Shown here: positions 11,053 through 64,000 of the stretch, piece after piece
Position numbering within the stretch: the first letter of the stretch is position 1
Layout: each line of letters opens with the position of its first letter
DNA from: Carcharhinus amblyrhynchos
Lineage: Eukaryota
Direction: 5' to 3'
Assembly: GCA_965287045.1 (NCBI GenBank)
Contig: OZ336876.1
Coordinates: 50,282,001 to 50,346,000, forward strand
Length of the DNA stretch: 64,000 bases
Program-made: the position numbers and the translations under genes
Notes under the pieces: model-generated
Database searches by the model: none
Told to the model about the DNA's origin: nothing
Seen by the model: the letters and a program-made list of their open reading frames with translations, nothing else

Positions 11053-11265
11053 CAGTCATGATGTGGATATACCGGCGTTGGACTGGGGTAAACACAGTAA
11101 AAAGTCTGACAACACCAGGTTTAAGTCCAACCGATTTATTTGATAGTACACTCACTAGATTTCGGGTTAGTTATTCACCTGACGAAGGGACTAACCCGAA
11201 AGCTAGTGAGTGTACTATCAAATAAATCGGTTGGACTTAAACCTGGTGTTGTCAGACTTTTTACT
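11053..11265. mobile_element. Short fold-back Penelope-like insertion (family A) with 14-bp TSD
   Basis: TSD AGATAAATGAATAG at 11039-11052 and 11266-11279. Inverted arms 11096-11171 and 11190-11265 (76 bp, 1 mismatch at 11159) with an 18-nt spacer. Confidence 0.9.
11173..11211 (+). ncRNA. Minimal type I hammerhead ribozyme motif (PLE type)
   Basis: Stem I ATTCAC/GTGAGT, core CTGACGA at 11179-11185 plus an extra A, stem II GGG-ACTAA-CCC, GAAA, palindromic stem III AGCT. Predicted cleavage after CUA (11205). Confidence 0.75.
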
Positions 11266-12351
11266 AGATAAATGAATAGGCAGGGATAGGGGGATGTGGA
11301 CTGTGTGGAAGCAAAAGGTCTTTAGTTTTTCAAGACATCATGTGTTGGTGCAGGCTTGGTAGACAGAAGGACCTGTTCCTGTGCATTCTGTTCTTTGTTC
11401 AACCAAAATGAGTATAATTCACCTGTGGCATTCAGCTGCTAAAAATACACACACTTTCTCTGCAGCTCAATGTGCACTGTCTGAATACACAAGGTATACA
11501 AGGTAAACTCTCTTAAACAAGTGGGTTTTGACTTTAGTAATCACTACATGACAATCAAGTTGCCCAGTATTCATAAGATTGTTGCTTTGTTAGTTGACAT
11601 AAAATTGAAGCCAGCATTGGAGGTAACCCAAATAGATCTGGATATGAGTGTGAATGAAGTCAAATCAACTCTTCAAAATAAATCCTCAATCTTATAACCA
11701 AAACAATCATTCTCAAAGTTCTTCTGTTCTGACAGATTTTGGTGGCTTTAAATTGGTTTACAGGTTCAGAAAAAGATGATGCAACAAGAATCATTTTGTA
11801 CAAATATGTTGTGTTTTTTCAGTAACATCAGCTACGTTAGAACCACACAATTGTCTTTAGAGAAAATACTTCAAGATGGATCTGAAAGAATCCATTGTTA
11901 TATAGGTTTATTTTCACACTGTTCATTTATTTGCACTTATTTATTTATTCTGAGACCAGAAGACACTTTTTAAACAATAAACTTGTTGTTGCTACAGTGG
12001 ACCACTATGATAACAAAGAAAAAAAAATGGATTTTCTGGGTTGCGGAAGCCCAAAGCACGAGAGCTTGTGAAAAAAAATGAACAGCTTGCTGAGTCTGGA
12101 GCATTCTGAAATGTCACTATTAGGTGCTGCAATATACTGCACATGTGTTTAAATGCAGTGATTCATCCTCAGGAACTGTCCTTTAATGGTAAATTGATCC
12201 TTACACTAACTAGGAAGTTGTGTTTGGTCAGATGCTTTCCCAATGGAGAAAGTTCCATAACACAATGAAAATTATTACAAAAGGTCCTGTCAACATGTGC
12301 TGCTATCTTTTGTGTTGTGATTTTTAAAAAAAAATCAGATTTGAAAAACAA

Positions 12352-12480
12352 TTATGGGGAGAGGGCGGGAATGTGGAACTGAGCTACGACAGATCAGCCA
12401 TGATCTTATTGAATGGCGGGGCAGGCTCAAAGGGCTAGATGGCCTACTCCTGCTCCTATTTCTTATGTTCTTATGTTCTT
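12352..12480 (+). mobile_element. CR1 LINE 3' UTR tail
   Basis: gatcagccatgatcttattgaatggcggggcaggctcaaagggctagatggcctactcctgctcctatttcttatgttcttatgttctt, ending in the 8-bp terminal microsatellite. Confidence 0.85.
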
Positions 12481-13089
12481 AAAACTCTACACTTGAAAAA
12501 TCTAACCACCTGGTCTGTTACATTCATAGACAGTCTCTCTTTTTCATTAATATGGTGCACATTGCGGGGTGGCTATGGAGGTTATATAGGCAGCAGAAAG
12601 GTGTCATAGGATGATATCATTGATCTGAGGGAGCATGGAGAATGTATGGGAGGCATGAGTGATCTAAGGGAGCATGAGCTGGCATCAGGGATGGGTGGAA
12701 GCACGTGTGAAAGTTAAGCAGCCTTTAAAAATTTTTGGGAACTGGGATCCCGTGATGGCAGAGGCAGGACTTCTAACCAACCTGCCTCCACACCCACACT
12801 CCCCATGCGCTCCAGCAAACCGCAGACTAAACCTAACTTCAGTGTGAAAAGACAAAACTGGCGCAATCAAACACGGGTCAGATGTGTAGCTTGTATGCTG
12901 CAAAAGTGAGCAGGTCAAGTTTTCAAGCCCAGAAGGAGATTCAGCCCTAGGCATTCCCAATGCACAGAAAGACCAGAGGAGAATGCTGCAGAGTTGGGAA
13001 CGTGGAGGCAATCCTGAAAAATTGTGGCTAGTCAAGAATTGAAATGCATTTCCAATCCCAAATAAACAACCTTGGCCCCTAAAATTAGT

Positions 13090-13967
13090 TGTGGGAAATA
13101 CATTGTGGGATTACCTGAGCAACACTGCTTCCAATGCACGCGACACACAAACTGCATTTGTTTGCAGCCAAAGTTATGCGTGCTAATTCGAACCTGGGTC
13201 CTGTGGCCAAACGGGCCGCTTAAGATGGTGGTTTGCAAGAGCATGCTGGGATAATTGGAAAACACTGAAACAGACAGGCTGCAGCCTCAAAAGAAATTGG
13301 ATCGAGATAAAAAGGCTGCATCTGCAGACGTTGGAATACACTGGATATAGGCCATCTCAAGGACAAAGGACACTTTCTGGTCAAGCTGGGTTGTTTACCA
13401 GAAACAGGAGCGCTTTAACCCTGGTTTTGGGAGGGAGGTATGTGACCTATGTGCCTCCAGCACCTACAGACATGACCGTTGGGTACACACCCAGAGATCG
13501 GTGTGGCAGCACCTAGTTGGACTTTATCGATCAGGGTGCTCAAGCCCTGATCGAATGATTGGCAATGGCCAAAAAGGGCACAAAATCAAAGAGATATAGA
13601 GGATGCTGCACACAGAAGAATCTCTCTCCCAATGAATGAACCACAACAACAACCGTCGCCAGCAATGACTAGCATGAGGAGAGCCACCTCACCAAAAATG
13701 GAAGGAAGACCAGAGCCAGAGTATCAGACTAAGCTAGGCAGAGGATAACGAAGACTAATACGTGGATAAAGACCAATATCTGCCTGGGTACTTGCCAGTT
13801 ATGTGAAAGTTAAGTCAAGGTCTAGTTTTGGACTTGAACTTTAGTATTCTGCAAGATAACTTAGCATTGATTGGGTGGGTGATTAATAATTGTGTGTGAG
13901 GATAAATATTATTGTACTAACAAGAAGTCTGCTCACAATTCTTTGTAAACATATAAGGGTTAAAACA
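13090..13967 (+). mobile_element. Probable solo LTR (retroviral or Gypsy type)
   Basis: TG...CA ends, retained CpGs, a 10-bp hairpin at 13527-13554, ATTGG (CCAAT) at ~13558 and a TATA-like gatataga at ~13594 followed by a CT-rich tract. No TSD found. Confidence 0.45.
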
Positions 13968-13984
13968 GACTGTATGAATGGTGC

Positions 13985-14062
13985 AGCAACAGTCCCCAGA
14001 ACATTATCTGAGTTTCTGGATTAATAGCCTAGCAATAATACCACTAGGCCATCACCTCCCCT
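13985..14062 (-). mobile_element. tRNA-derived SINE head fragment
   Basis: The reverse complement ggggaggtgatggcctagtggtattattgctaggctattaatccaga is homologous to the SINE head at ~49020-49100. Confidence 0.6.
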
Positions 14063-14229
14063 TTAAAGCTAGCCAGCACTTCTTAAAGCCAGCTTGAACG
14101 TTTTGAAGGAGCAGTGCAGTTCAGGTTGAAACAGGAGCCAGAAGTCTTTCTAAAACTGATTTTGACATGGTGAACACTGAATAATAACACAACACAGTAG
14201 ATAGTAAGTTCCACTGAAGGCCTTGTTGT

Positions 14230-14720
14230 GATAAGTGTCACATGTCAAGCTAGAGGGTCTGGATACAATGCCACAAGAAGTTCAACAACTTCACACCAAC
14301 AGTCAAAGTCAGTGAATCTATTTTCAAATGCCACAGCCTAAATGTACCACTAGCCTCGCACACTGTTCAATTCACCACCCACTCAACACACATCTACCAA
14401 TAATCACTGTCCGTCACAATTCATCCCTCATATTCATAGCTTCACCTCACATCCAGACAACTGAAAACATCACATACCACCAGCTATTTAACCAAGACAC
14501 CCATTCAAACACACTGCACTTCATTCATTAACACTTCCCTCTCTTTTGCAGGATTAAAGTGGTACATAACCAGAGGCAGCAGCAACAGCTAACCAGCAGA
14601 TGATAGGCACAGCTGTGGGTCCTTACCCCAAGAGGAGGTCATCAATTGGGCAGCCCATGGCTGAGATGGTGGCCATAATGGGGCTGAAAAACCATTCAGT
14701 ACCCACACAAGACCCTCTTC
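14230..14720 (+). pseudogene. Degenerate, intron-containing Myb/SANT-like (Harbinger ORF2-type) gene relic
   Basis: 14260-14307 reads WIQCHKKFNNFTPTVK. Donor gtcagt at 14308, acceptor ctcttttgcag ending at 14551, then (with a frameshift) KVVHNQRQQQQLT. Resembles the 'W.QCRKKFNDL...KVAHN' trihelix pattern. Confidence 0.5.
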
Positions 14721-15672: not shown

Positions 15673-15749
15673 TAAACCAGAAGGTAACAAGCAGATTTGA
15701 TTCTCACTATTTTTCATCTAATTTTACATAAAGTTAAATGAAGATTGGG

Positions 15750-18796: not shown

Positions 18797-19015
18797 AAAG
18801 CAAAATAGTGCAGATGCTGGAAATATGAAATAAAAACAGGGAATGTTGAGGGTGGAAAGGAAACACAGCAGGTATGGCAGCATCTGTTGAGAGAAAAAGT
18901 TCACACTTCAGATCAGTATGACTCTGAAGAAGAGTCATACAAACTCAAAACATTAACTTTCTTTCTGTTGCCACAGACTCTGCCAGACTCACTGAGTTTT
19001 ATGACATTTCCTATC
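18797..19015. mobile_element. Old fold-back Penelope-derived element (family B) with decayed hammerhead
   Basis: Central perfect hairpin gtatgactct/agagtcatac (18916-18940). Core CTGAAGA-A-GAGT..ACTC-AAAA-CATT (GAAA and CG lost, consistent with CpG decay). The outer arms are degenerate inverted copies. Confidence 0.65.
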
Positions 19016-19153
19016 TTAGTATCTCAGATTTACTGGGAACTCAAATAACAACCTCATTTGTTTCAAATGTATTCTTGTGTTAAAAACAGCTGAAATAATT
19101 ATCTGTCTCTCTTGCTACTGGTTGCATTCAATCTGTTAGGTTTTCACTTGGAT

Positions 19154-22080: not shown

Positions 22081-22409
22081 AGTCAGTGCAAGTCCTCAAT
22101 GCAAATTACTCTGCTGCTGCACATGAAATCCATACCATATTTTTGTTCTATATACAAAATGTTCACAATCTTTATTCCTACATCAGATTTGTATTTATTT
22201 TCCACTAATTTGATTTTGGTTTTCTAACCCTATTTTCTGACTTAATTTGAAGCAATATCATAGATTTATTTTATTGAATTCACTTCATGTTTTATAAACA
22301 GCAATGAAGATTCTCCTAAAGTACCTTATTTCCACATGCATGTGAGTAGATCTACCTTTGAATTGTAGCATATCTGTGGCTGAAGTTATTATTTAGACAG
22401 AATGAAATA

Positions 22410-26745: not shown

Positions 26746-26840
26746 TCTTTATCAGATGGCATTTGGATATTGGCTCGTTCACACAATAAAAAGTCTGACA
26801 ACACCAGGTTTTAGTCCAACCTATTTATTTGATAATATTC

Positions 26841-26878
26841 TCACAAGCTTTCGAGGGGACAGCCTCTTCGTCAGGTGA
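26841..26878 (-). ncRNA. Hammerhead ribozyme motif, mirror copy in the left arm
   Basis: Exact reverse complement of 27391-27428. Confidence 0.7.
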
Positions 26879-27390
26879 ATGGAGAGTTCTGGCCTCAGAC
26901 AGAGCATATAAAGCACAGACAGTTTAGAGATTACTGATTAAAATGCGAATCCTTACACCTAACCTGCTGTTCAAGACCTGAAGTGGCTGACAATGTGAGT
27001 GGAAGGAGCACTGATCACAGTTTAAAGAGATGTGTATTGTCTCCAGACAGTACAGTAAGTGAGGTTTTGCAAACCCAGGCAAGTCACGGGGGTTACAGAT
27101 AGTGCGACATGAACCCAAGATCCCTGTTGAGGACGGTCTCAACAGGGATCTTGGGTTCATGTCGCACTATCTGTAACCCCCGTGACTTGCCTGGGTTTGC
27201 AAAACCTCACTTACTGTACTGTCTGGAGACAATACACATCTCTTTAAACTGTGATCAGTGCTCCTTCCACTCACATTGTCAGCCACTTCAGGTCTTGAAC
27301 AGCAGGTTAGGTGTAAGGATTCACATTTTAATCAGTAATCTCTAAACTGTCTGTGCTTTATATGCTCTGTCTGAGGCCAGAACTCTCCAT

Positions 27391-27428
27391 TCACCTGACG
27401 AAGAGGCTGTCCCCTCGAAAGCTTGTGA
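27391..27428 (+). ncRNA. Minimal type I hammerhead ribozyme motif (PLE type)
   Basis: Stem I TCAC/GTGA, CTGACGA at 27395-27401 plus an extra A, stem II GAGG-CTGTCC-CCTC, GAAA at 27417-27420, palindromic AGCT stem III. Predicted cleavage after CUU (27424). Confidence 0.75.
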
Positions 27429-27780
27429 GAATATTATCAAATAAATAGGTTGGACTAAAACCTGGTGTTGTCAGACTTTTTACTGTGTTTACGCCAGTCC
27501 AACGCCGGCATACCCACATATTGGCTCGTTGCCAGAGATGCCACAATATCCCTTTCTGAAGCAGATCAAAAGTCTAAATACACAACAGAAGTCACAAGTA
27601 TTAAAGAAAAGACTTTCGTTCATCTGCATTAGGTTGCATAAATATTTGGGACAGGTGATAAAAAAGAGCTAAGATTCAATATGGAATATGTTTCCACATG
27701 CTTGATGTTTTGTTTCTCAATAGTCCACAGATGATCAACAGGCTTGCATTGACAAACCCTGAAGAAAATGTGGAGAATTT

Positions 27781-29945: not shown

Positions 29946-30451
29946 TAACTTGGGCGGGACTTTCTGGCCACACTTGCGCCAAGAACAGAAAATCCCATCC
30001 TAGGTCAACGGACTTTTGCATAATTTGCTCCTCCCGCTCACAACAATTCCCATGCCTTATTTTTCAGAAAAAACCCAATTTTCCAAGAAAACCAGAACCA
30101 ATTGCGCATGCTCAGCGTGTCTGTTTAGAATTGAATGTTCATAATAAATAATTGTACTCAGAAGAGTTAATAAATAGCTACAAATGAATGCTCATTCCAG
30201 AAATTCAGAATCCATGCATCTTTTGTAAGTTTCAAAGCTATTATTTGGCCATTCTGGATGTGACTGCTTTCCCCTGAACAAGCCAGCTCCATCCATTACT
30301 ACAATCATTTAACTTGAAAGTTCAAATTAAAATGAAGTTTCTAACAAAATAAATTGGTACCTCAATTTCAGAAGGGATGTATATTCAAAATATGATCACA
30401 AAATCATGTTGTTGTCTTAAATATGAACGTGAAAGAAAACAACATAATCTC

Positions 30452-31004
30452 TAGACCGCACTTTGAATATAGTGTTCAATTCTGGTCGCCACACTACCAG
30501 AAAGATGTGGAGGCTTTGGAGTGGATACAGAAAAGATTTACCAAGATGCCTGGTATGGGAGGGCATTAGCTATGAGAAGAGGTTGGAGAAACTTGGATTG
30601 TTCTCACTGGAGAGACGGAGGGTGAGGGGTGACCTGATAGAAGTCTACAAGATTATGAGGGGCATAGGCAGAGTGGGTATTCAGAAGCTTTTTCCCAGTG
30701 TGGAAGAGTCAATTACTAGGAGGCACAGATTTAAGGTGCGAGGGACGAAGTTTAAAGGAGATATGTGAGACAAGTTTTCTTTACACAGACGGTGACGGGT
30801 GTCTGGAACTCGCTGCCGGGGGAGGTAGTGGAAACAGATACGATAGTGAGTTTTAAGGGGTGTCTGGACAAATACATGAATAGGATGGGGAAAGAATGAT
30901 ATGGTCTCCGGAAGGGTAGGGGGTCTAGTTCAGTCGGGCAGCATGGTCAGTGCAGGCTTGGAGGGCCAAACTGCCTATCCCTGTGCTGTAATTTTCTTTG
31001 TTCT
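30452..31004 (+). mobile_element. 5'-truncated CR1/HER1 LINE
   Basis: 'SYEKRLEKLGLFSLERRRVRGDLIEVYKIMRG...RRHRFKVRG' followed by the CR1 3' UTR. Confidence 0.92.
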
Positions 31005-31844: not shown

Positions 31845-34290
31845 AAGGGGAAGTCTTGCATGCCCAACCTTACTGACTTTTTAAAGAAGAGAGTATAGAC
31901 AAGGGTAATAGATGTATTAAATGTAAATTTCCAAAGACCTATGCTTGGCTGAAAGGCAGAAAGCAGAAAGGAGGGGTAAAGTGCAGCTATTCAGTGTGGC
32001 AGAAGGTGGGAAGTAAGGTGATAATGGTCAGTGCTGAGAACTCAGCTGCTCACAATTTATATTAATGATTTAGATTTTGAAATCAAAAGCACAATTTTTC
32101 AAATTACAGATGACACCAAATTGAAAGGAATGAGACAACATTGATTAGGACTGCACCGATTTAGAATCACAGAATTGTTACAACACCATAGGAGGCCATT
32201 TGGGCCATTATGTCTGTACTGACTCTCCAAATGAGCATTCGGACTTAGTGCCATTCTCCTGCCTTTTCCCCATTACCCTCTTGAATGCCTCGATTTAAGC
32301 GGCCCCACCACACTTCCAGATAGTGCATTCCAGACCCAAACCATCACTGTTTGAAAACAATTTTTCTCACATCAGATTTACTTCTTTTGCAAATCACTTT
32401 AAATCTGTGCACTCTCATTCGTGATCCTTTTATGAGCAGGAAAAGTTACATCCCATCTATTCTGTCCAACCCCTTCATGATTTTGAGCATCTCTATCAAA
32501 TTGCCTTGTCTCTCCATCCCTGGAACCATTCTTGTAAATCTCTTCTGCACTGTCACAAATGTGTTCATATCTTCCCTATAGTGTGGTGCCCAGAACAGTG
32601 CACAATATTCCATCTGAGGTCTGACCAGTGTATTGTATAAGTTCAGCATAACCTCCTTGCTCTTGTACTCTATGCTCCTATTAATAAAGCCCAGAATGTT
32701 ACATGCTTTATTAACTACCCTCTCCATCTGTCCTGCCGCCTTCAATGACCTACACATATATATACACCCAGGTCCCTCTGCTCCTGCACCCCTTTCAGAA
32801 TTTTATCTCTTATTCTATGTCGTCTCTCCATCATCTTCTGACCAAAATGCATCAGCTTATACTTCTCCATGTGGAACTTTGTCTGCCATCTATCTGCCCA
32901 TCCCACCAACTTGTCTGCATCCATTTGAAGTTCTACACTATCCCTTCACAATTTTCCTAAGTTTTGTGTCATCCACAAATTTTGAAATTGTCCCCTGCAT
33001 ACCATCATCTAAATCATTAATATAAATCAGGAAAAGCAAAAGTCCTTATACTGACCGCTGGAGAACACCACTACAAACATTCCTCCAGCCCAAAAATTAT
33101 CCATTGACCATTACTCTCTGCTTCCTATTATTCAGCCAATTTTGTATCCATGTTCCTGCTATTCCTTTTATTCCAAGCTATAAACTATAACTTTTCTCAT
33201 AAATCTGTTATGTGTCACTGCATCAATTGCCTTTTGAAAGTCCATGCACACCATATCAATAGCATTGCTCTCATCCAAAAAGTCCAGCTAGTTAAACAGG
33301 AGTTTACTTTAGAAATCCATATTAACTCTTCCAAAATCAACCCACATTTTTTCCATTTGACTATTATCTAGTCAATTGTTTTGAGAAGTTTGCTGATGTT
33401 AATTGACTGTCTTTAATTGCTGGGGCTATCCTTACATCATTTTTTTGAACAACAGCATAGCATTTGTAATTCTCCACTCCTCTGGCATTTCCCCTGAGTA
33501 TAGAGAAGATTGAAAGATTATGGCCAGTGACCCCTGCAATTTCCACAAAAAGGCATTTCTAAAAATTTACAAAATGGGCAAAAAGCTGGAAAAGGAGTGT
33601 CAATATAGATAAGGGTAAGATATAAGTTTAATTGTAAATAGGGAGGTCACATATTACTTAGAAAGTGATAACCTGAATGAGTTACAGGAGCAAAAGGAAT
33701 CTGAAAATACAAATACATAAAAGATATAGAAGTTGCAACCCAAGTCAATAAGGCCATAACAAAACAAAGCCAAGTACTAAGATTTTTTCTAGCGGGATAG
33801 AATGAAAAAGTAGGGAAATTAAACTTGTATCAAACCACACTGCTGTGTACAATTCTGGTTGCCATATTCTACAAATAGTGTAGAGGTACGAAGCCCTGAT
33901 CATATTGAATGGCACAGCAGGTTCGACAAGTGGTCTACTGCTCACATTTCTCATGTCCTTAGGCACTGGACAAGATGCCAACAAAAAGATTTTCAAGGAT
34001 GATACGAGAACTGCAAAGTTATACTGACCAGCAAAGGATGGATCTCCTTTATCTTGAAAAGAGAAGACCGAGGAGCGAACTTAGAGGTTTCTTTAAAGTA
34101 TGAAAGGTTGTGATAGATTGGATTAAAGAGAAAATGTTTCTATTTGTGGGAGGAGGTCATCAATGCAACAAAGTGACCAAGGAAACAAATAGGGGATTTA
34201 GGAGAAATTCTTTTCTCAGAGTGGCAAGAACGTAGAGTAGTTAAGATGAACACTATAGATGCAATTAAGGGGAGGCTAGGTTAGCACAAA
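31845..34290 (+). mobile_element. Old CR1 LINE (RT region), split by the antisense CR1 at 32161-33545
   Basis: GKSC/TNL-like motif at ~31848 and aaattacagatgacaccaaattg (ADDTKL-like) at ~32101. It resumes at 33546 with 'WAK.W' like sequence and continues to a CR1 C-terminus. Confidence 0.65.
32161..33545 (-). mobile_element. CR1 LINE 3' ~1.4 kb, nested in antisense orientation
   Basis: Minus-strand ORFs 'NKACNILGFINRSIEYKSKEVMLNLYNTLVRPQMEYCALFWAPHY' and 'DKLVGWADRWQTKF'. Confidence 0.9.
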
Positions 34291-34787
34291 TCAGGATGGA
34301 ATCATGTCTCCAGGGAATTAACTCAGGCCATTTTATAACTGTGCAACCATCCCCTTGATGATAGGGAGAGAATTGTTTCTAAAGGTTATGCAGCAAATGA
34401 AATACAAGATCCCAGCCCAGAATATTTGTCAGTCTAAATCTGTTTACCTAATTTTATACGCAAGATATTATGTAAACCATGCTTACCTGCCTGGGAAACC
34501 AGGAGGCTGGCAGCTGCATCTTTTGAGCCAACGACCAGCTACACATGCCTGAAAACCTCCCCTTAAATGCATCTATACTTTCATCTTAATTACTCTGAAT
34601 TCTCACCACTTTGATAAAGAATTTCTTCTGAATTGCCTATTTGCTTTCTTTGTTAACCATCTTGTGTTGATGACCTCTTCCTCACAAGTGGAAACATTCT
34701 TTCTTTAATCCAATGTTTCAAAACTTATCATACTTTTGAAAAACCTCTAAGCTTACTCCTCAGTCTTCTCTTTACAAGATAAAGGGT

Positions 34788-42289: not shown

Positions 42290-42600
42290 TGGAGAAACCA
42301 TTTCTATTAGCACAAACATCAATAACCTAACATCAATAATCTGCTATGGCAGATAAAAGAACCAGAGGCAATAGAGAAGAGCATTTTTGTTTTTAAACAC
42401 AGCACATTGTGATCTGGAATGCACACCTGAAAGGGTGGCTAAGAGGACAATCAATGGTCATGTTCAAAAAAGAAATAATTTAATACTGGACAAGGACAAA
42501 GTTACAAAGCTATGGGGAAAAGATTAGTATGGCTATCAAATTAATGAAATGGCACAGATATGATGGGCTGAATGACTTCCTCACATGCTGTATGATTCTA
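42290..42600 (+). mobile_element. Decayed CR1 3' end
   Basis: gatctggaatgcacacctgaaagggtgg and tail gatgggctgaatgacttcctcacatgctgtatgattcta. Confidence 0.6.
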
Positions 42601-42894
42601 AAGTTTGTTTATTCATGTCACAAGTGGGCTTACATTCACACAGCTATGAACTTACTGTGAAAATCCCCTAGTCACCACACTCCGGCGCTTGTTCAGGTAC
42701 CAAAGGAGAATTTAGCAGGCCAATTCACCTAACTTGCACATCTTAGGACCGTGGGAGGAAACTGGAGCACCTGGAGGAAACCCACACAGACACGGGGAGA
42801 ATGCGCACACTTCATACAGACAGTGACCCAAGCTGGGAATTGAACACAGGCCCCTAGTGTTGTGAGGCAGCAGTGCTAACCACTGTGCTGCATG
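42601..42894 (-). mobile_element. V-SINE with alternative 3' tail
   Basis: Reverse-complement homolog of 22410-22722 over its full length. Confidence 0.85.
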
Positions 42895-48883: not shown

Positions 48884-48916
48884 TATAACTCTATGGAGAA
48901 TAGCACTTCTTCCTCT

Positions 48917-48950: not shown

Positions 48951-49014
48951 AAGAGAACAAACACCCAAGCAACCGATGATGAGAAGTACTTGAGTCTAGC
49001 AGAGTACAACATCA

Positions 49015-51397: not shown

Positions 51398-52652
51398 ATA
51401 TGATCAGATATTACCTATTTAATTAGTTACTTTTTGAATATGAAATTTGAGCCTATTAGGTGAGTAATGTGTACATAAAAATATGATGCCCAAGTTGTGA
51501 TGAACAGCATGCATGTAACTACAAGACTTTAATTTCAAAACTCAAGATTTGGAAGAATAAAAGAAAAATGCTCCATTTGATGCTGGCTTCTCCAGTAAAC
51601 CTATCAGTGTAGGAACAAGATGGGGTTAAAGTGACAGTTGAAAATCAATCATTTTCTTTGTTCAGTTTTTTTGTAATTTGAGGAAAAAAAATTCAAGGAT
51701 TCAAATTAAATCAGAAATATTGTGACAAGCTCTTGAAGGGATTATTTTTTTCCATTGAGATTGCTGAGATGAAAACCACGCATGGCCTAAGGTAATTCTA
51801 CCGTTAGTCACTCAGGACCAGTAGATACAGAATTTCAAGGTAAGATTTTGTCTTTTCACAATTTATAGATTTCTACATTATACAACGATAGCTGCAAGCC
51901 TGCAACAGGGGTATAATAATACATCAGTGAGTTTGAATGAAGTTAAAAAATGCAGCAGTGAAACTTGAACAATGGTATGTATTTCTTCCTCTGCTCAATA
52001 TGTGAAAAGTTTCTACAATAGGAAGTTTAACTGAGGAATATAGTAATGAACAGAAACCGAAAGAGACTAATAAAGTCAATGGCAGCCTTCAACGGTAGCA
52101 TGGAAGATAACTGTTTTACATGAATTGTGATATTCTAACTGAAGTGGATGAACAAAGAAAAACAAGTGGGTTAGATCAAAAGTAGAAGTTCAGGAATCAA
52201 AAGGGTTGCCAACTACAGCTAAAGAGAATGATAGCCAAGTATGGATACTGGAAAGAAAAACTCAACAGCCCTATCCTGACAATTATTGAAGGAGAAATGG
52301 AGGGTAAAACAGAAATGGAAGAAGATGGGTGGATGAGTATTGGACTGAAGGAGGTTTGAAGAAAGCCAGTGAAGAAACAAGATGATGCCAATGGGCCAAA
52401 TAAAGCAAAGGTAAAAACAAACAACAATATTGCAGTGATACCGTTTTACCTTATTAATTGTAGGATCATTGGTCACCACTGAATGCTAACTCGGTACAAT
52501 GTCTTATATCTGCAATTATACCGGATTGTCAAACAAGTTTCTATTTACCTGTTGGAGAAACTTAAGGAGGCGCAATAGTAATGAAGTAGTTACAAGCACC
52601 CAAACAAGTAACACATAAGAAAAATTGTAAGTCCTATAAATTGCCAGCTGTA

Positions 52653-53710
52653 TCATAGAAGACAGAGGGTGGTGGTGGAGGGAAAATTTTCAGACTGGAG
52701 GCCAGTTACCTGCGGTGTATCACAGGGGTCAATGCTGGGTCCTCTGCTTTTTGTGATTTTTATCAATGACTTGGAAGAAGGGGCTGAAGGGTGGGTTAGT
52801 AAATTTGCTGACGACACCAAGATTGGTGGAGTAGTGGATGAGGTGGAGGGCTCTTGCAGGCTGCAAAGAGACATTGATAGGATGCAGAGCTGGGCAGAAA
52901 AGTGGCAGATGGAGTTTAACCCTCATAAGTACGAGGCAATTCATTTTGTTAGGGCAAACTTGAATGCAGATTACAGGGTCAGCGGCAGGGTTCTAAGGAA
53001 TGTGGAGGAACAGAGAGATCTTGGGGTTCACATCCGAAGATCTCTGAAAGTTGCCACTCAGGTGGATAGAGCCGCTAAGAAGGCTTATAGTGTGTTAGCG
53101 TTTATTAACGCTAACACACTATAAGCATTTAAGTTTAAGTTTTGAGTTTAAGAGTCGTGGGGTTATGCTGCAACTGTACTGGATGTTAATGAGGCCACAT
53201 TTGGAATATTGTGTTCAGTTCTAGTCACCTCATTATAAAAAGGATGTGGAAGCATTGGAGAGAGTGCAGAGGAGATTTACCAGGATGCTGCCTGGTTTAG
53301 AGGGTAGGTCTTATGTGGAAAGGTTGAAGGAGTGGGGCTTTTCTCTTTGGAGCGGAGAAGGATGAGAGGTGACTTAACAGTGGTTTATAAGATGATGAGA
53401 GGGATGGATAGAGTGGACGTGCAGAGACTATTTCCTCGGGTGGATGTAGCTGTTACGATGGGGGCATAACTTTAAGGTTCATGGTGGGAGATATAGGAGC
53501 GATGTTCGGTGTAGATTCTTTACTCAGAGAGTGGTTGTGGTGTGGAATAGACTGCCTGTTGTGATAGTGGAGTCAGATGCTTTAGGAACTTTCAAGCGGT
53601 TATTGGATAGGCACATGGAGGGGATAGCTTGATCTTGGGATTGGACATAGCTCGGCACAACATTGAAGGCCGAAGGGCCTGTACTGTGCTTTACTGTTCT
53701 ATGTTCTATG
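52653..53710 (+). mobile_element. Relatively young 5'-truncated CR1 LINE (RT domain to 3' UTR)
   Basis: 'GVSQGSMLGPLLFVIFINDL...SKFADDTKIGG...WAEKWQMEFNP', ending gttctatgttctatg. Confidence 0.95.
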
Positions 53711-55135: not shown

Positions 55136-58100
55136 TATGCACCAATATTAATACTGAATGCTGTTGACTTATCAGAGGTATCTTTCATGCTATTTTCATC
55201 CAATAATGTTCTTTAATCATGGAATAGGAACTTATTAGTTAAAGAACAAATGACTAACCACTTATGACAATGAGAAACTTTGCACGCTTGTCCTTCAAGG
55301 ATGTTTGGATTCTTGATTATATTTTAATACTGGGTAATTTATATTACGTTTTAGATAAATACCACTCTGGTTAGTAAAATATACTTCCTTCAAGTTACAG
55401 ATTCTGCCTTAAAAATAAAATTAAAGCAATACAAGCCACAGTGATCCGGGTACGTCCGAGGTCAAGCCTAATACTAAATTTAGTAGTCAGCCAGCTGCAT
55501 TTGACGCTAACGTGCTGGTTGTTATGGAGATATGGTCAACCTGCTGGGTGAGATAAACTGCTAATTGGCACCACTGGAGTACTGAACTCCATGAAATATA
55601 TATTTCTCCAAAGCTGACATACCTGCCAAAGGAATGTGATAGTTATGTAATTTGTAATACTGTCTGGGAAATTAAAAAGTCCAAGTAAAATATAATACTG
55701 AAACTTATTTACTCTTTACGTGATACAATTGGTTCAGCTTTAAAGAAATTACATTTATCAAGATTTCCGTTATTTCATAGCTCCTGCTACAACTTTAATT
55801 ATTTGTATTGGGCTTCACTCTGTACAAGTATGGTTTCAATACAATGTTACAAATCACAATTGAGAATATTTGAAGTTAGGGTTGTTGTACAAATTACTAT
55901 GCCTTAAGTGAACAAGTTGATAATTTTGCATGAAGCCTCATAGAAACTGCCATTCTGAAACTTCACCCAAACATGAACCCAAAGTGTGTGAACCAAGCAA
56001 TGTGGTTTTTTTTTACAAATTCCATCTGAAACTCTGTTTATTGCTCCAGATAAAGGTATTTTACTCTAAAAATGCCTTTGTACCACATGTACATCACAAT
56101 TATGATATTTTGGTGAGAAAATCTCAAGCAAAGGCATATGTTTTCTCTTTTAACCAAATAAAATTTCTACACTGACATCCAAATGTACCAAAAGTATATT
56201 AAATTTGGTAAAATGTAATATGATGACCTAGAGGAATCAATTGCTGGGGATTACACAATATGAGAGACCAAACAAGCATATAATTGCTGTGACTTTTGCT
56301 AAGCATCCATGTTACTGGCTAGCAACAATTGCTACATTAGTGTACTAAGTGCAATATAAATCCCTTGGGAATATATGTAAATTTTTTGATGAATCTATTT
56401 GACTTTATATCCACTTTATAGCTGGCAAGAATTCAAATACATTTTCTAATATAAAACAAAAATGGATCTATGATGTTTAGTTTTGATAAACTGATTGACT
56501 CCAAACTATCTATATAACTCAAACTCAATTGATGTGCAAGTAGTGTACTGCATTAACAAAAGCTAAAATACCAATATGTGTGACAAGAATTGTTGACAAT
56601 GACTACAGAATTTGACTTTTGATTTATGCAGATTCATGGTCAAATTCATGGTCAAATGGCCATGGTGAGTAATGCAATGGCCATTTCATCAAGTGTGGTG
56701 ATTTGTGCTGTTTTCAGTATTTTTTTGATGTAGTGTAATATTTGATAGACAATTCTAAAAGAATGTGAAATTAGAACCAATATATTTACTTTGTTTCTTG
56801 ATAATACAAGGAATCACTAGTTAGCTACCGTGGTCATTGTGTCACTGTGGCTGTCTGGTCTTTGTATCACTATGCCTGCATGAATGTTGAATAACTTGCA
56901 TATTAAATCATTTCCCTGAAGAGCTGATCCAGTGTAGGTGGCACAAAATAAAACTGCTTATTTTGACAGTTATCAGTCATTTCTAACACATTTGAAATAA
57001 AGCGAAACATTTTAATTCTGTACAACATGGAACTGTGATAAAGGTGGGAACAGCAACAGCTGTGATTGTAGTGTCACAATAGCTGCAGCAATTGAGCTAA
57101 TACACACGCATTTGTGTTGATAAGCATTGTGTATAAGATAAATGATTTCTTTATGGTAACCAGGATGACAGTTACGAAGGGGCATGATTGAAGGCATATA
57201 TTTACAAAAAGAATTATCGTCCCACAAAATGCAGACAGCGGGATTTCAAGGAGTCAGAGAGACAGAGAAAGATAAAGAGAAAGGAGAACCTGTGAGATGA
57301 AGTATTCAGAATGGAAATTGTAAATGGACAGACAGAAAGAAAACAGAGAGTCTGAATGGAAGATTTGAAAAGAGAAACATGCAGGGAATATAGACAGCTT
57401 GTAAATACAGCTAGTGGAGCAATGCCTCAATATGGATTGGGATTCTTCCACTTGTTCAGTTTTAAACCTAGCCATTAGGCAAATTTCATAGAGGCAGCAA
57501 AAATAACCAATTTGCACAGCATCCAAGTAAACTGTGTTCACATTTTCCTAGAGTTTACCTATAAATAATGTAAAACATTCAGTAATATTTTGTACAGTTT
57601 CTATAAATTGATCTCTTGAAAAGAGTCAGATATTAGTCATCTTATTTTTCAATCTTATTAGTCATGATTATGTTTTTCAACTAATTCATTTGTACTTATA
57701 ATTGATTTATAAAAGAAAGTCAAATAACCACAGAACAAAAATGTTGCTTATTTGAAAAGGGTCTATTTCTCAGATCTGCTTTTTGATTGATAGCATGAAG
57801 TGATATAATTGCATGCAGAAATACAGGATATTATGGAACTTGTAAATGTAATATTCCACAAAAGGCTTATTTTAAGACTGAATGTGATTAAAACTCTGAT
57901 GGAACAAGCTGTGGTTGCACGTAGATGATATGACAAAGTGGAAATACTTAGTCTGGCACCCGGTCAAACAGCGAGCATCCAATTGTGTACAGACCAACAA
58001 AAGATACCGAGGGCTGTGTAAAGGCTCTTAAGTACAAGGGAAACAAAACCAAATGGTGAGGTGAGCCAAGGTAATCTTAATACCTTTCAGTAGCTGGTCT

Positions 58101-59705
58101 GAGAGTGACACCTTCTGAAGGAATGACTACTGGTGCCAAGATGTTTGAGAGAGATGGAAAATGGCAAAGTTGTATTTTTTCATTACTAGTTAAAAGTTAT
58201 TGTTTAATGATTTGAAAGGTCTACAGGAAGTGTAGGCCTGATATTGTCAGTTAGTTATTCAGATATTTGTAACACTACCTTCAGTTCTCAGTGTTAAACA
58301 CTTCACGAAAGTTAGATGTGCTCACCTTGCCACATGCAAAGCTTTGTTACTGACTAACTGTAATGCAAGAATATTCAACATGTAGGTGAACCTAGGTTTG
58401 TGTTGAAGGAAGTGGTTCAATTTAAGATTTTTGGTGGTGGTGGCGGGGGGGGGGGGGGGGCAGAGAGATTAAAGGCTTTAAAAATGGTTTTCTTCCAATG
58501 TTCAAGTCTGAATGTTTGCATTTTTTAAGAAAATACGATTTTACTTTACTTTGGGACTTTAATACTGACAAACCATTTTTTCTTTTTGAGTGCAGAATTC
58601 CAGATTAGTTTATTTTGAATAGTGATCTGGATTAATATTGTTAACACGTCGGTAACCAGAACACTGCCACTTCAATTGTAAACAACTCTCAAAGGACCCA
58701 CTGAATTACAAAATCTTGGGTTTAATACTTCCCAGGCACATTTTCTTGAAAAGTGTTTTAAAACCTCCAAAGAGTAATTACTTTCAGGATTGGTCGTTAG
58801 CTCTCTGCCAAACGTCTGTTGAGATGAACAGCAAGATGCAGCAAATGTATCTTGCACCATTTGTAGTCCACTCTTTAACCTGCTTTTAAATGGGCTGAGG
58901 CGACAGAGGTTTCTGACAATTGAACTCCGGTTTATTTCTGTTCCCCAACAAGCGGCCAGCTGACGGAGGCGGCATTCTCTTAAAGTGACCTCCCATTGAG
59001 TGGAAGCCAAATGTACTTCACATTGCAAATTGACTCTCTTCAAACGGGTGAGGTGAAAGTTTGTGAACTGGGTGCAACCTGGCCATATTTACTCGGACCA
59101 TAAACCACTTGACCTTGATGCAGCGCGGGCGATGTTTGTCAGCACAGAGGGAGATGAGGTTGCGAAATGGCGAAAAATCTCATTTTGGAAAAGAAAGAAG
59201 AGGCCGCGGGCGGGAAATGAGCGGCAGCGCGGGCGGGATTTTGACGGCGAGGATGCGGGGATTGTGCGGGCAGCAATTGCGTGGATGGGAATGTTGGCAC
59301 TTTGCGGGGCCGGGGGGGGGGGTGCGAGGCTGGACGGGGATTGTACGGACTACGTTTGCAGACTGTACGGGACTGGGATTGCGGTTGGTTGTTTGCGGAC
59401 TGGCCGGGGCGGAGCCATTCGGGGATTTGCGGACTGGGGCTTGGGCGGTTATTGCGGAGGCGGGGTTTGCGGGAGCTGGGCAGAGCTGGCGGATTACTGG
59501 CGGGGCGGGGATTGCGGGCGCTGTGCAGTATGTGGGGCGGGGTTTGCGGGAGGATTTGCGGGGCTGTCCCCTGTGTGTGCACAGGGGTGAAAGTTTGCTG
59601 ACTTTGCTTGCGCTATGCGACAATCCCACAATGCACCGCAAAGCGGCTCAGCTGCAAAAGCAAAGGGTCCGCGAGCAGCAAGATCCCAGAAACATAAGCT
59701 GACAA

Positions 59706-59852
59706 CCCGGGCCCGGATGGAGCCCGGACAGAACCCGGACCGGGACAGAACCCGAGCAGAGCCCGAGCCCGGATAGAACTCAGGCAGAGCCCGAGCCCGG
59801 ATAGAACTCAGGCAGAGCCCGAGCCCGAGCCCGGATAGAACCCGAGCCCGGG
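59706..59852 (+). repeat. GC-rich tandem repeat (CCCGAG-based, 28-bp higher-order unit)
   Basis: gcagagcccgagcccggatagaactcag starts at 59756 and 59784, with a variant at 59812. Confidence 0.85.
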
Positions 59853-60297
59853 CAGCAGCTGCAGCAGCACAAGAAGGGGGAATCACTGACACACAGAGAA
59901 TGTGGCCGGGAACTGGCGAGATCGAGTCCCGCTCCTGCCCACCCGAAACAAACCTTGTTACGGAGCAAAACAAAGAAATGCAATGAATTAAAAGTGCGAA
60001 AATCTGAAGGGGTCATTCCTTACCATCTGTGTCTCAACTCCTTCTTCCAGGGCAGAGTTTGTGTTGGTATTGGACGGCATCATGGGATCAGATTGAATAG
60101 ATTTAAGATTTTATATAAAATAAAGCAGAGTAGTGCCTTCTGTCCTTCAGCTTTTCCTTGTCTGCAAATGAAAAAAAACAAAAAAAAAGATGATTTTCAA
60201 ACAGTCAAATTGAAGTGGATTTCTCAATATCTTCAATGATTTAGAAGCCCGTGGCTCTTGCCACCTTAGCGAAAATGATAAGCGTTGCAGGCAGTGG

Positions 60298-60397
60298 NNN
60301 NNNNNNNNNNNNNNNNNNNNNNNNNNNNNNNNNNNNNNNNNNNNNNNNNNNNNNNNNNNNNNNNNNNNNNNNNNNNNNNNNNNNNNNNNNNNNNNNN
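60298..60397. other. Assembly gap (100 N)
   Basis: Run of N. The 16-mer gcgttgcaggcagtgg abuts both sides. Confidence 0.98.
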
Positions 60398-63300
60398 GCG
60401 TTGCAGGCAGTGGTGCTGGACAGTTGTTGACAACCATTTTCACATTGAGCATCGTTTAGATCTGGGCTGCTGATCATCACTGATCGCCAGCTCCCCCTCA
60501 CTTGGACAACTGCTCGAACATTATTGTCATACCTGCCTCCCCTTCACACAAAAAACCGTAACAGACCACAATTTACACTGAGTGTTCCCCCTCTCTCTTT
60601 CTCTGTTATAACATGGCGGTTTTGACATGGTGCCAAAATGCGCATTTTGTTGCTTTACTCGCTTTGGCCAGAGGAGAAAGCGACCCTTCCCGCACCCCCC
60701 ACCCCCTCCTCTTTCAAATTAAAATGCATCTTTTTTTGTATTTTGCTGGCAACGTTTCATTCTCACGTTCTGCTCGGTCAGCATTTTCCATTTTCGCCTC
60801 ATCTTCGTCAAGCATGTCAGCAACACCTCTGAAGGAGCCCCGAATCCCTGCTTTCTGTGTATCTCAACAGGCAAGAAAGAATCTCCCGACCAATTTTTTT
60901 TTGTTTGAATTCCCTTTCGCTCTATCTTTGATGGAAACTAATCTTCACACATGTGGAAACAATTGGATATATAACAAAGTCGAGCGATATTTCCAGATCC
61001 CCTTGAAATATCCGATGTCCCTATCATATTGTGTGTTACGTATTACATTACTGGATTAAAATGTTTTCTCAAACCATTTGCCTTTTTGTGTGTTGATCTG
61101 TGCGATTCAAACGAAGAGCAGATTTTTTTTTTATAAAAGTGTTTGACATATCGCAGGTTGACATATCGAATGTAAAATAATACACTGAAAAAAAAACACA
61201 TCTCAGCCTATGAAAGTCCCATACGCCATTCAGATTTTTTTTTCAATAAAAGATGGCCCTCCCCCCCCCGATACACCAGGTTGTGATCAGATTGATAATT
61301 AGAGCTTTGCTCTGTGTTTTGACTCAGAAAGGGTGACCTCAGCTAGTCTGACTGCAATGCTCCCAGTGATGACTGTGTATCAGTCCTGCAATGGCAGTGG
61401 CGATGGAGGGCGAAAAAAAAAATAACGCCCCGTCAAAATAAGGGACCGAGCACCTGTTGCTATGGAAAATCCTACATGCATTTGCCATGTGTGATGTTGT
61501 ACTTGGCAGTGAGAGAGATTTTCTGGAGCCTTCCATTGCCTCAACACCCCCCCCCCTTTCCCTTCATCTGGAATCACTGGGAATAGCTGGCTAACATGGC
61601 GTCTGCTGCCTTTAAACTTAAGGTTAACCTTCATAGACCCCTTCGCAACAAATAACCACAAAAAAATGCGCTCACAACGTGACATCCCCAAAACTAGCCC
61701 CATGCCACAATTCTGAACGTTCATTATTGTTGGCTGCTTCGAATAGATCTATCTGCACGTTATTGCTGCAGCAGACACACGATTGCAAGAAATGTATCCG
61801 CTCCCACCGGCTAACTTTAAAAGTAAATAACAGCGAAAGAACCCCCGAGATCCTGATTCCTACAATAACGGGCATACACTGAAGACATTAGTACTTGATT
61901 ATGGAACATACGTAAAATCCTAACCACTATATTCTGCTGCTGGTCACACTGACACTGGGACGCAAAAGATAAAACAGTGACATGTCTAACACAGACAGCA
62001 GTATAGATATTTTTACAAATGTATCACTGAAGAAAGCATGCAGTTTACATTTATAACACCCCCCCCCCCCCCAGATTTGCGTGCAGGTGGAGCAAGGTAC
62101 GATCCATCGAGATCCCCACAGGGACATCAAGTAATCCTCGGGGGAATCATTTACTATTGCACAGTTACAGAACAAAATTCTCCAAATGGGCTGCACTGAT
62201 GCAGAATTTGATGCCATTTTGGTTTGCCGGCGCTATCAGAAAACGAGCAATTAAGTTCCAGAGACGGGCTGTAGAAGTGGAGTTTGGAAGACAGCCAAGC
62301 TTCAGATGATAAACTAGCTTTAGCTGCAGCGAATACTAAGACGTACCAAGGCTTAGCTACATTTTTGTTCGATGTAAGACTTTTAGAAAAAAGATCACAC
62401 ACACACACGGCCAGATTACACCGAAGGAATATTTCAGCTTTTAACAGCTCCTTCGCTTAATCAGAAAACGCCAATAACACCTCCCAAGTTCACGGTGAAA
62501 GTGAACAACGGTTAAAATGTACAGGAGGACACATCTGCAGAGAGCTCTGATGGAACCTCCCCCCCCCCCCCCCCCATTAAAAGAAAAACATCACCATCTT
62601 TGACTGCTTTTAGATTCGCGACCGCCGTTCGAAAAGTTGACAATCGGAAAAGATATTGATTAGCTGATGACTTTAATAGTGATCCGAGTGTAAATTACCC
62701 GTTGCCAATCCAGGCCTGGACCTTTTCCCTCGGCTGATTCTTCCAGCGTCCTCCCCAGCCGGCGCGGCCTCCTTGAGGTCCCCTGCACTTACTGCAGAGC
62801 CCTACCGGGTACAGCCTGGCTTCCGCGCAGTCCTAAAGCCCGTCACCTCACTTCAACCTCTGTGAATCCTCCCAGAGGATACAGTACACACTGAAATGCC
62901 ACCAAACCCCTCAATAGTCAGCCTGTTGCAGCATATTCCTCGTCCTACTTTGAATTAAATTGTAGATATCTGCAAAGCGTAAGCTATCCCCTTGCTTAAC
63001 GTGTTTGATTATATTCGCGGATAATATTTAACTTTCCAGTTTCCCACCACTTTTCCAGTTTCACGACCAAAACAACTTGAAGTCAACAATTTTTTTTAAG
63101 TGCATTCAAACCTCTTTATTACAAACCTGTGAGGATCAACAAAGTAGTTCTTCTTATCAGGATCTGATGTGGAGTTTTGAGCACCTTTACAGAGCTTCCA
63201 CTTCGAAGCAGGGGCAGAATATAATTACCTCTGTCATCGTGGCTCGGCTGGATTTCGCTTCACTCATTCCCTTCAACACGACGGCAATTATGCACTGTGA

Positions 63301-63454
63301 TTATTTCCACTAATTTAACTGCTGACAGAATATTTACTGCCAGCACTTTTTAGGAAGGCTGAATGTCAAGATTAGTGAGATAAACAACAGATCACACGAT
63401 AATTTCAGATTTTACAACTTCTAAGAGATGCATTACTATAGTTAAAAACAAATT

Positions 63455-63612
63455 ACTGCGGATGATGGAACTTAGAACAGAAACAGAAAATACTGGAAAA
63501 TCTCAACAGGTCTGACGAAAGGGGGGGGGGGTCATTGAAACGTTGGCTCAATTATCTCACCATAGATGCAGTCAGGCCTGCTGAGATTTTCTAGCATTTT
63601 CTGGTTTTGTAT
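63455..63612. mobile_element. Family B fold-back PLE derivative with damaged hammerhead
   Basis: Arms agaaaatactggaaaatctcaacaggtctgac / gtcaggcctgctgagattttctagcattttct. Core CTGACGA at 63512, poly-G in place of stem II, then GAAACGTT. Confidence 0.7.
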
Positions 63613-63844
63613 TATAAAATGTCTTCTCTAGCACAATAACCAATTCTAATTTTAGAAATGTTACATAAATCAAAGTTACCATAGAGATTCTTGAATCTAA
63701 ATCACAAATCCGTTTTATGGTAATCAGTGTGTTCCTGTTAAAGGATATTAAATGCCAGAGCAATATAGACTATATGTTGACACCATCAGCCATTCACTCA
63801 AAATCGATTAAATATATTTAAACCGCTTGACCAAAGTATAACAA

Positions 63845-64000
63845 TGAAAACAGAAAATGCTGGAAAATCTCAGCAAATCTGACAGCATCTGTGGAGAGAG
63901 AACAGAACCAACGTTTCGAGTTTGGATGACTCTTCCTGCTCTGAGGAAGGGTCATCTAGACTCGAAACGTTGGCTCAATTCTCACTCTATAGATGTCAGA
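63845..64000. mobile_element. Family B fold-back PLE derivative, cut off by the window end
   Basis: Inner arms 63908-63937 and 63944-63973 (imperfect) around the spacer gctctg. The outer arms continue. Confidence 0.8.
63938..63976 (+). ncRNA. Minimal hammerhead ribozyme motif (family B)
   Basis: CTGAGGA at 63941-63947 plus an extra A, stem II GGGTC-ATCTA-GACTC, GAAA at 63964-63967, palindromic ACGT stem III, short stem I GCT/GGC. Confidence 0.6.

What the first reader, a model, noticed from the sequence alone, without database searches (positions are those of the whole stretch)
11173..63976. Two families of covarying minimal hammerhead ribozymes, seven motif copies in 64 kb
Seen: CTGANGA-A-[stem II]-GAAA-[palindrome] recurs at 2 (mutated), 11179, 26841-26878 (minus), 27395, 18924 (decayed), 63512 (damaged) and 63941. 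Stem II differs in sequence but keeps pairing (GGG/CCC, GAGG/CCTC, GAGT/ACTC, GGGTC/GACTC). Stem III is a 4-nt palindrome (AGCT in family A, ACGT in family B). Established: PLE hammerheads have vestigial palindromic stem III and are proposed to cleave as dimers. Inference: the differing palindromes could give family-specific dimer pairing. At this density the genome would hold a very large number of such motifs.
Basis: partly seen in the sequence, partly recalled or inferred. Interest (0 to 1): 0.7.

Follow-up and report, generated by a model that had tools for sequence, protein, structure and literature searches.

The report
Penelope retroelement stubs with minimal hammerheads
The motifs are real but of a known kind: they are the small hammerhead RNA motifs carried at the ends of Penelope-type jumping genes, here left in short, mirror-image insertion scars that are likely inactive, and the two 'families' are likely simply a young and an old element lineage.

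Summary
Observation confirmed: 4 of 7 motifs are intact minimal type I hammerheads (0.017 expected by chance); 3 are damaged. Family A (AGCT) is the pseudo-LTR end of a young Penelope-like element with a 3.0-kb unit and an 893-aa reverse-transcriptase ORF; the genome holds 49,029 AGCT cores and 823 ACGT cores. Family B is an old, decayed PLE lineage. This class was described in 2014 (PMC4209133). Every window copy sits in a truncated fold-back insertion; in the three tested, the hairpin outcompetes the hammerhead fold by 31-77 kcal/mol. Stem II covaries among A subfamilies, not within B. An A/B hybrid cannot pair, but stem I alone already forbids it, and 17 recurrent A stem II types share AGCT, so the palindrome is no family code. 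Full elements carry two same-strand hammerheads (14 of 18), the likely cis-dimer substrate. The one lead: copies start at the motif's 5' edge, about 30 nt behind a TATA-like box, and not at the cut site. The scan already noted both the motif and this lead on other DNA.

The parts
1..134 (+). Family A pLTR stub with tail; hammerhead core at 2-31 carries A6>G (predicted dead); its inverted partner arm lies just upstream of the window
   Evidence: L062 4891-5027 self-inverted
11053..11265 (.). Family A fold-back insertion in a CR1-type LINE remnant; 14-bp target duplication 11039-11052 / 11266-11279; the minus arm has the tail plus the first codons of the element ORF (ATGACT) and only the 3' half of the hammerhead
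11174..11210 (+). Intact minimal hammerhead: stem I TTCAC/GTGAG, stem II GGG/CCC, AGCT, H17=A, predicted cut after 11205; the arm begins 6 nt before C3
26781..27519 (.). Family A fold-back insertion, 354-bp arms, centre 27135, tail on the plus arm only, 13-bp target duplication 26767-26779 / 27518-27530; holds the last 15 codons of the PLE ORF (27129-27173)
26840..26879 (-). Intact minimal hammerhead, mirror copy of 27390-27429; predicted cut at 26845
27359..27364 (+). TATA-like hexamer TATATG, 36 nt before C3 and 30 nt before the A of CCATTC (27389); predicted promoter, untested
27390..27429 (+). Intact minimal hammerhead: stem I TTCAC/GTGAG, stem II GAGG/CCTC, AGCT, H17=U, predicted cut after 27424
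27440..27445 (+). AATAAA 16 nt after the predicted cut, conserved across A subfamilies; use as a poly(A) signal untested here
18809..19023 (.). Decayed family B-type fold-back; core at 18924 has lost G12 and the ACGT palindrome
63455..63614 (.). Family B fold-back; the motif at 63512 lacks the 3' strand of stem II, and its CTGAC is shared with the inverted arm at the junction
63845..64000 (.). Family B fold-back (runs about 60 nt beyond the window); the minus arm 63845-63937 has a hammerhead cut off in the 5' core
63938..63974 (+). Core-intact family B hammerhead: stem I only 3 bp (GCT/GGC; family form AGCT/GGCT), stem II GGGTC/GACTC, ACGT, H17=U, predicted cut after 63971

Best explanation
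The motifs are minimal type I hammerheads in the terminal repeats of two Penelope-like retroelement lineages, left in truncated fold-back insertions that are likely inactive, while in full-length elements the two same-strand copies 3.0 kb apart would pair through the 4-nt palindrome and swapped stem I strands and are predicted to cut slowly. Shown: motif, parent ORF, unit length, tail, target duplications, fold-back layout, counts. Inferred: the element's endonuclease nicks both target strands and its reverse transcriptase starts at two internal sites near the tail/ORF-start junction (as shown for the anole element in PMC11167929), giving two cDNAs joined head to head, one with and one without the tail. 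Inferred: most templates were uncut, because copies run through the hammerhead and show no excess of ends at the cut; many stop at its 5' edge, likely because a pLTR-promoted RNA begins there. AGCT versus ACGT is likely lineage drift under a need to stay palindromic, not a selected partner code.
For: Parent of A: 909-codon open frame (893 aa from ATG) with RVT_1 E=2.4e-9; Atlas look-alike clusters at 0.96-0.97 carry RVT_1 and GIY-YIG (GIY-YIG in 23-42% of members). The tail directly precedes the ATG. 14 of 18 elements with a 5' hammerhead have a second on the same strand one unit downstream; 12 of 14 share the stem II type allowing point changes. Parent of B: degenerate PLE ORF remnants upstream of the motif in L253 (27% over 320 aa, E=2e-17) and L247. 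Stem II of A: 48 of 51 cells paired against 41.6 shuffled, 0 of 5000 shuffles reach it; pair 2 is A-U in 10 and G-C in 7 types. Fold-back beats the forced hammerhead by 76.7, 31.5 and 44.4 kcal/mol; the antisense arm lies 5' of the sense motif on either strand. 57 of 70 fold-back pairs have identical stem II in both arms, and most others differ by one base. 5' ends: A, 22 of 89 arms end at -20..+1 of C3 against 10 at -21..-100 and 2 within 5 nt of the cut; B, 20 of 52 end at -9..0, 1 is clearly long and 3 end within 5 nt of the cut.
Against: No cleavage, RNA end or transcription start was measured. 12 of the 22 A arms in the pile-up reach -10 to -20, beyond the start predicted at -6, so the start-site reading fits B better than A. 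B boundaries are uncertain by a few bases, and 9 calls at -11 to -52 are ambiguous. In 30 B copies chosen for an intact core about 6 keep the native upstream sequence. The B boundary is also a polypyrimidine-AG that looks like a 3' splice site. 15 of 129 A motifs have GCGAG, which breaks stem I pair 2, and this is fixed in a successful subfamily, which weakens the case for strict catalytic selection. Model energies do not favour the dimer over two monomer folds (-14.9 against 2 x -7.9). GIY-YIG was not hit in Pfam; it rests on motif reading and the Atlas. Arms of one insertion are not independent (13 insertions, rough P=0.0025), and these copies come from the first 7 Mb of one contig with some segmental duplicates.
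Confidence: 0.88

Rival explanations
1. The AGCT and ACGT palindromes are a selected partner code that keeps hammerhead dimers family-specific.
For: AGCU/ACGU pairs only 2 of 4 (+0.4 kcal/mol against -2.5 and -1.7 for homoduplexes); both families keep a palindrome; hybrid dimer model +5.1 against -14 to -16.
Against: Swapped stem I already fails after 1 bp in A/B. All 17 recurrent A types share AGCT, and the two A types modelled cross-pair fully. Only two palindromes form families. A is young and B old. Full elements supply a cis partner.
Confidence: 0.07
2. The short copies are non-autonomous mini-elements or retrozymes that spread on their own as circular or hairpin RNAs.
For: Very high copy number; many B fold-backs centre near the same GAGCTC; retrozymes are reported in one chondrichthyan genome (bioRxiv 10.64898/2026.07.22.740005, parts 1-2 read).
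Against: No tandem array at any motif in the window. Junctions and arm lengths vary from copy to copy. Stubs carry the same stem II types as full elements. Circles made by cleavage would not give a boundary at the 5' edge of the motif.
Confidence: 0.06
3. The pile-up of 5' ends at the motif's edge comes from reverse transcriptase stalling or switching at the folded or protein-bound hammerhead, at short palindromes, or at a 3' splice site, not from a transcription start.
For: A ends spread from -20 to +1 and often meet at GGCC or AGCT micro-palindromes; B has CTGAT-polypyrimidine-AG at the boundary; in D. virilis the intron ends at helix I (PMC4209133); self-priming at junction palindromes is proposed in PMC3846280.
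Against: Stalling should show at the 3' side of the fold, which is met first. B copies ending at -4/-5 share no upstream exon sequence by eye. A TATA-like box sits 30 nt before the boundary A in both lineages. No contig joint ends at the A candidate acceptor (contigs of runs only guessed to be RNA).
Confidence: 0.35
4. The motifs are host-recruited ribozymes acting in host transcripts at this locus.
For: 4 copies have intact cores.
Against: Intact A copies are simply young; B copies decay at CpGs (0 of 49 sampled arms pass the strict descriptor); the three fold-backs tested are locked; no host Pfam domain passed its cutoff in 100 window ORFs.
Confidence: 0.02

Closest known systems
[quoted passage not shown]
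   Same: Type I core, extra base between 9 and 10.1, G10.1-C11.1, palindromic 15.2-16.2, short stem I, many consensus families with covariation, mostly single truncated copies, and pairs on opposite strands 100-700 bp apart.
   Different: Stem II is 3-5 bp here against 7-8 bp in the Schistosoma families; counts are higher (about 50,000 cores against about 4,000-9,000 in coelacanth and Xenopus); cartilaginous fish are not named in the parts read.
Lunse, Weinberg and Breaker, RNA Biol (PMC5785218): small hammerhead variants of PLEs cleave as dimers
   Same: By its title and its citation in PMC6765202: shortened stem III, PLE association, dimer cleavage.
   Different: Not held; I saw only the reference line and one citing sentence, so I cannot say whether it lists these families or tests heterodimers.
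Poseidon of Anolis carolinensis (PAc), Frangieh et al. 2024 (PMC11167929; parts 1-2 of 4 read)
   Same: Hammerhead near the pLTR-ORF junction, tail defined by two internal RT starts, both strands extended; uncut RNA is the main template and no RNA ends were found at the cut.
   Different: There the ORF starts inside the hammerhead; here the ATG is 127 nt after C3. PAc is Poseidon clade; family A has a Neptune-type Cys linker.
Inverted pLTR + tail + TSD insertions of EN+ PLEs (PMC3846280, PMC8557442; passages read)
   Same: Inverted 5'-truncated arm, one-sided 30-40 bp tail, TSD, palindromes at the junction, putative TATA box and Inr in the pLTR.
   Different: The passages read do not tie the start site to hammerhead stem I or describe a pile-up of copy ends there.
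Non-LTR retrozymes (bioRxiv 10.64898/2026.07.22.740005; parts 1-2 of 5 read)
   Same: Type I hammerhead derived from PLE pLTRs.
   Different: Defined by at least two head-to-tail units; none at these loci.

Membership tests
PLE minimal hammerhead (min-HHR) | Core CUGANGA...GAAA with U16.1-H17 and stems I and II | tested here: met
   4 of 7 window copies; the other 3 are mutated
PLE minimal hammerhead (min-HHR) | Unpaired base between 9 and 10.1, and G10.1-C11.1 | tested here: met
   A in 128 of 129 A motifs; G-C in 15 of 17 recurrent A types and 55 of 57 B motifs (part of the B set was selected on this sequence)
PLE minimal hammerhead (min-HHR) | Palindromic 15.2-16.2, no stable stem III | tested here: met
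   AGCT 49,029 (control 6), ACGT 823 (control 9), A-W-W-T 221 (control 56)
PLE minimal hammerhead (min-HHR) | Located in both pLTRs of an RT-EN element | tested here: met
   Family A: 14 of 18. Family B: only ORF remnants upstream in L253 and L247; no full element seen
PLE minimal hammerhead (min-HHR) | Self-cleavage as a dimer | not testable with these tools
   Pairing model only
Neptune-clade EN+ PLE (family A parent) | Single ORF, RT followed by C-terminal GIY-YIG with a CX2-5CxxC linker | tested here: met
   RVT_1; C-x4-C-x2-C then VYLIRC...YIGET read; GIY-YIG not hit by Pfam, Atlas lead; linker criterion from PMC8557442 passages
Neptune-clade EN+ PLE (family A parent) | RT phylogeny groups with Neptune rather than Nematis or Poseidon | not tested
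   No reference set was fetched
Neptune-clade EN+ PLE (family A parent) | Partial-tandem pLTR, inverted arm, one-sided tail, TSD | tested here: met
   (40 of 89 arms end at the tail end, 45 end 28-42 nt short)
Non-LTR retrozyme | Two or more head-to-tail units each with a hammerhead | tested here: not met
   No tandem array overlaps a motif; all neighbours are inverted
Rfam hammerhead families | Match to a covariance model | tested here: not met
   None at E<=5; these models expect a real stem III or longer stems (recalled)

The most novel reading that the evidence does not exclude
In these PLEs the pseudo-LTR works like a retroviral U3-R-U5: a TATA box starts the RNA inside the 5' strand of hammerhead stem I, so the ribozyme is the first 35 nt of the message and its cut would decap it. 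Reverse transcription starts about 90-130 nt downstream, at the tail/ORF junction, and runs off the uncut 5' end as a strong-stop-like cDNA, which either integrates as the ubiquitous stub or jumps to the 3' repeat to copy the whole element. The stub record would then be a genome-wide fossil map of the start site and show that cleavage is rare or comes after copying.
Probability: 0.45. Interest if true: 0.45.

Novelty: new member of a known kind. Interest (0 to 1): 0.15.

Why it matters
As a ribozyme discovery it matters little: the class, the palindrome and the dimer model are published. It adds a young vertebrate PLE with many near-identical copies and long open frames, suited to biochemistry. 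The role of PLE hammerheads is still open (PMC8557442 and PMC11167929 both say or show they may be dispensable), and the copy-end statistics bear on it: no excess of ends at the cut and an excess at the 5' edge. If the start-site reading holds, it explains why these stubs are so common and gives a direct test of how PLEs replicate.

Tried and rejected
Rfam scan: only hairpin artefacts (miRNA models on fold-backs), no hammerhead. PDB sequence search with the ORF: 0 hits. Pfam on 100 window ORFs: only a LINE RT passed its cutoff; no host gene identified. Sequencing runs: no holder is on record as RNA; contigs of 4 runs guessed to be RNA cover the stretch but cannot show ends, strand or level. 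A second laying meant to look for poly(A) ends did not complete, so use of the AATAAA is untested. Third palindrome family (AATT/ATAT): rejected. 5' ends at the cut site: no excess (0 of 30 ORF-start copies; 2 of 89 A arms; 3 of 52 B arms). Two-RNA packaging through the palindrome, tested by stem II type in paired arms: only about 3 of 70 pairs clearly carry two different recurrent types (L026, L283, L343), and 2 of 14 full elements have different types at their two ends, which can explain them; no support. My first B search used a two-arm query and is biased to fold-backs, so it was not used for boundary counts. No R-scape or covariance model was run; covariation was counted by script with a shuffle that ignores relatedness. 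Literature searches found no paper holding Penelope + hammerhead + TATA + transcription start (0) and none of the 10 listed (of 16) holding both Penelope and strong-stop; most subscription journals and Lunse et al. are not in the library. Supplements of PMC4209133 and PMC8557442 were not read and may show these families.
Full report
Observation. A strict descriptor finds four intact ones (11179+, 27395+, 26874-, 63941+) against 0.017 per shuffled window. The copies at 2, 18924 and 63512 have core or stem lesions. The seven motifs belong to six insertions, since 26874 and 27395 are arms of one fold-back. Rfam does not see them. The genome is 2.92 Gb and rich in CR1-type LINE remnants; a cartilaginous fish is my inference from recall and from the scan's earlier notes, not a test.

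Family A. The 27395 copy has many 97-100% identical relatives. Upstream of them lies a reverse-transcriptase ORF ending 220 nt before the motif. One natural copy gives 909 open codons, 893 from the ATG, with RVT_1 at E=2.4e-9, a C-x4-C-x2-C linker and a GIY-YIG-like VYLIRC...YIGET motif. Pfam did not hit GIY-YIG; Atlas look-alikes carry it in 23-42% of members. The 3' tail of the repeat is directly followed by the ATG, and two ORF starts 3,026 bp apart give the unit length. Of 18 elements whose 5' repeat holds a hammerhead, 14 have a second one on the same strand one unit downstream; 12 of these share the stem II type (only 401-bp windows were fetched, the interior was not read). This is the pLTR-ORF-pLTR layout of endonuclease-bearing Penelope-like elements, Neptune-type by the linker (criterion from PMC8557442 passages; no tree was built).

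Family B. It is older (81-88% identity) and mostly decayed: 49 arms in an 800-kb evenly spaced sample, none passing the strict descriptor, against 52 A-type arms and 11 strict hits. PLE ORF remnants lie upstream of the motif in two loci. No full B element was seen.

Counts. CTGANGAAG-N8-18-CGAAAGCT: 49,029 (reversed control 6). With ACGT: 823 (control 9). With A-W-W-T: 221 (control 56), the listed ones being mutated A or B copies. The sample extrapolates to roughly 180,000-190,000 arms of each type, mostly dead. The window is at most mildly enriched for intact A cores (P=0.09).

Covariation. Among 129 A motifs, 17 stem II types recur; 48 of 51 cells at pairs 2-4 pair, against 41.6 after shuffling (0 of 5000), and pair 2 switches A-U/G-C. 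The shuffle ignores relatedness and the stems are G/C runs, so this is supportive and not a formal test. B shows one dominant stem with sporadic changes; part of that set was selected on the stem. Against strict selection, 15 of 129 A motifs carry a stem I mismatch fixed in a subfamily.

Dimer specificity. By hammerhead topology, a loop-less AGCU can only pair with another copy, and then stem I is also exchanged between the partners. Modelled that way, A/A, A/A-variant and B/B form all four stem III pairs and 3-5 bp of stem I; A/B forms 2 of 4 and 1 bp. Hybrids are thus excluded twice over, and the two A subfamilies modelled are not told apart at all. With A young, B old and a cis partner in each full element, I see no case for a selected palindrome code. 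The energies do not show that dimers are favoured over monomers.

The window copies. Each is a truncated insertion with an inverted arm. Two have clear target duplications of 13 and 14 bp. One arm carries the tail and the other stops 28-42 nt short, as in 40 and 45 of 89 genomic arms. In a transcript of either strand the antisense arm comes first, and the long hairpin beats the hammerhead fold by 31-77 kcal/mol in the three tested. They are likely inert. Both arms usually carry the same stem II type (57 of 70 identical).

Where copies begin. I selected arms on sequence downstream of the cut and mapped their 5' ends. In A, 22 of 89 rows (3 are duplicates of long arms) end at -20..+1 of C3, 10 at -21..-100 and 2 within 5 nt of the cut; counted as 13 insertions the excess has a rough P of 0.0025. 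In B, 20 of 52 end at -9..0 with a mode at -4/-5, 22 end inside, 10 are called further up of which one is clearly long, and 3 are near the cut. A TATA-like hexamer starts at -36 in 98 AGCT motifs and at -34 in 8 ACGT motifs (near-identical copies, not independent; one search found 133 and 63 motifs with a similar pattern), 30 nt before an A in the 5' strand of stem I in both. Four window motifs begin at this edge. The 11053 arm and three 3' ends run into ATGACT, so copying began at a repeat-ORF junction. I read this as run-off from an uncut RNA that starts at the hammerhead. It fits B well and A only in part, and stalling, micro-palindrome joining or a splice acceptor remain rivals. No RNA evidence was obtained.

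Comparison. Cervera and De la Pena 2014 (PMC4209133, parts 1-2 of 4) describe the motif, the palindrome, covarying families, inverted pairs and low dimer activity. PMC11167929 (parts 1-2 of 4) shows internal RT initiation, protein-assisted cleavage and uncut RNA as template. PMC3846280, PMC8557442, PMC2377424, PMC6765202 and PMC6155905 were read as passages; PMC3846280 already notes a putative TATA box and Inr in a pLTR, while PMC2377424 finds a TATA-less internal promoter in Drosophila Penelope. The 2026 retrozyme preprint (parts 1-2 of 5) defines tandem retrozymes, which these are not. Lunse et al. was not available. The scan's own notes report the same motif many times, in this genome too, and the same start-site lead on other DNA; they are unchecked AI notes and not support.

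Verdict. A correct catch of a known kind; interest 0.15. The start-site and run-off reading is the only part worth follow-up.

Noticed in passing
   Followed up: no
family A loci, e.g. L171-L190, L281-L380: Loop II varies strongly (17 recurrent stem II types) among elements whose flanks and ORFs are about 98-99% identical: a hypervariable 11-14 nt spot in young lineages.
   Followed up: partly
L192/L416 and L193/L417; L026, L283, L343: Elements whose two repeats, or two inverted arms, carry different recurrent stem II types; suggests occasional template switching or mixed source elements.
   Followed up: partly
L172, L198, L207, L348 and others: A successful subfamily has GCGAG for GTGAG, giving an A-C mismatch next to the cleavage-site pair of stem I (15 of 129 motifs).
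   Followed up: partly
L183 2187-7757, L189 2562-7152: Near-perfect genomic palindromes of 4.6-5.6 kb (over 99% arm identity) made by this element.
   Followed up: no
window 5149-5229, 34046-34785, 53080-53129: Other inverted repeats without a hammerhead core; the 5.2-kb one is the end of a repeat also found at 22409, 42600-42888 and 51120.
   Followed up: no
window 58001-60012: GC-rich stretch (49%) with a 28-bp tandem repeat at 59706-59827, possibly a CpG-island promoter; a 100-base run of N lies near 60.2-60.4 kb.
   Followed up: no
window 52612-53478, 30448-31004, 10625-11052: CR1-type LINE remnants; RVT_1 hit at 52612-53121. Several PLE insertions sit inside such LINE pieces.
   Followed up: no
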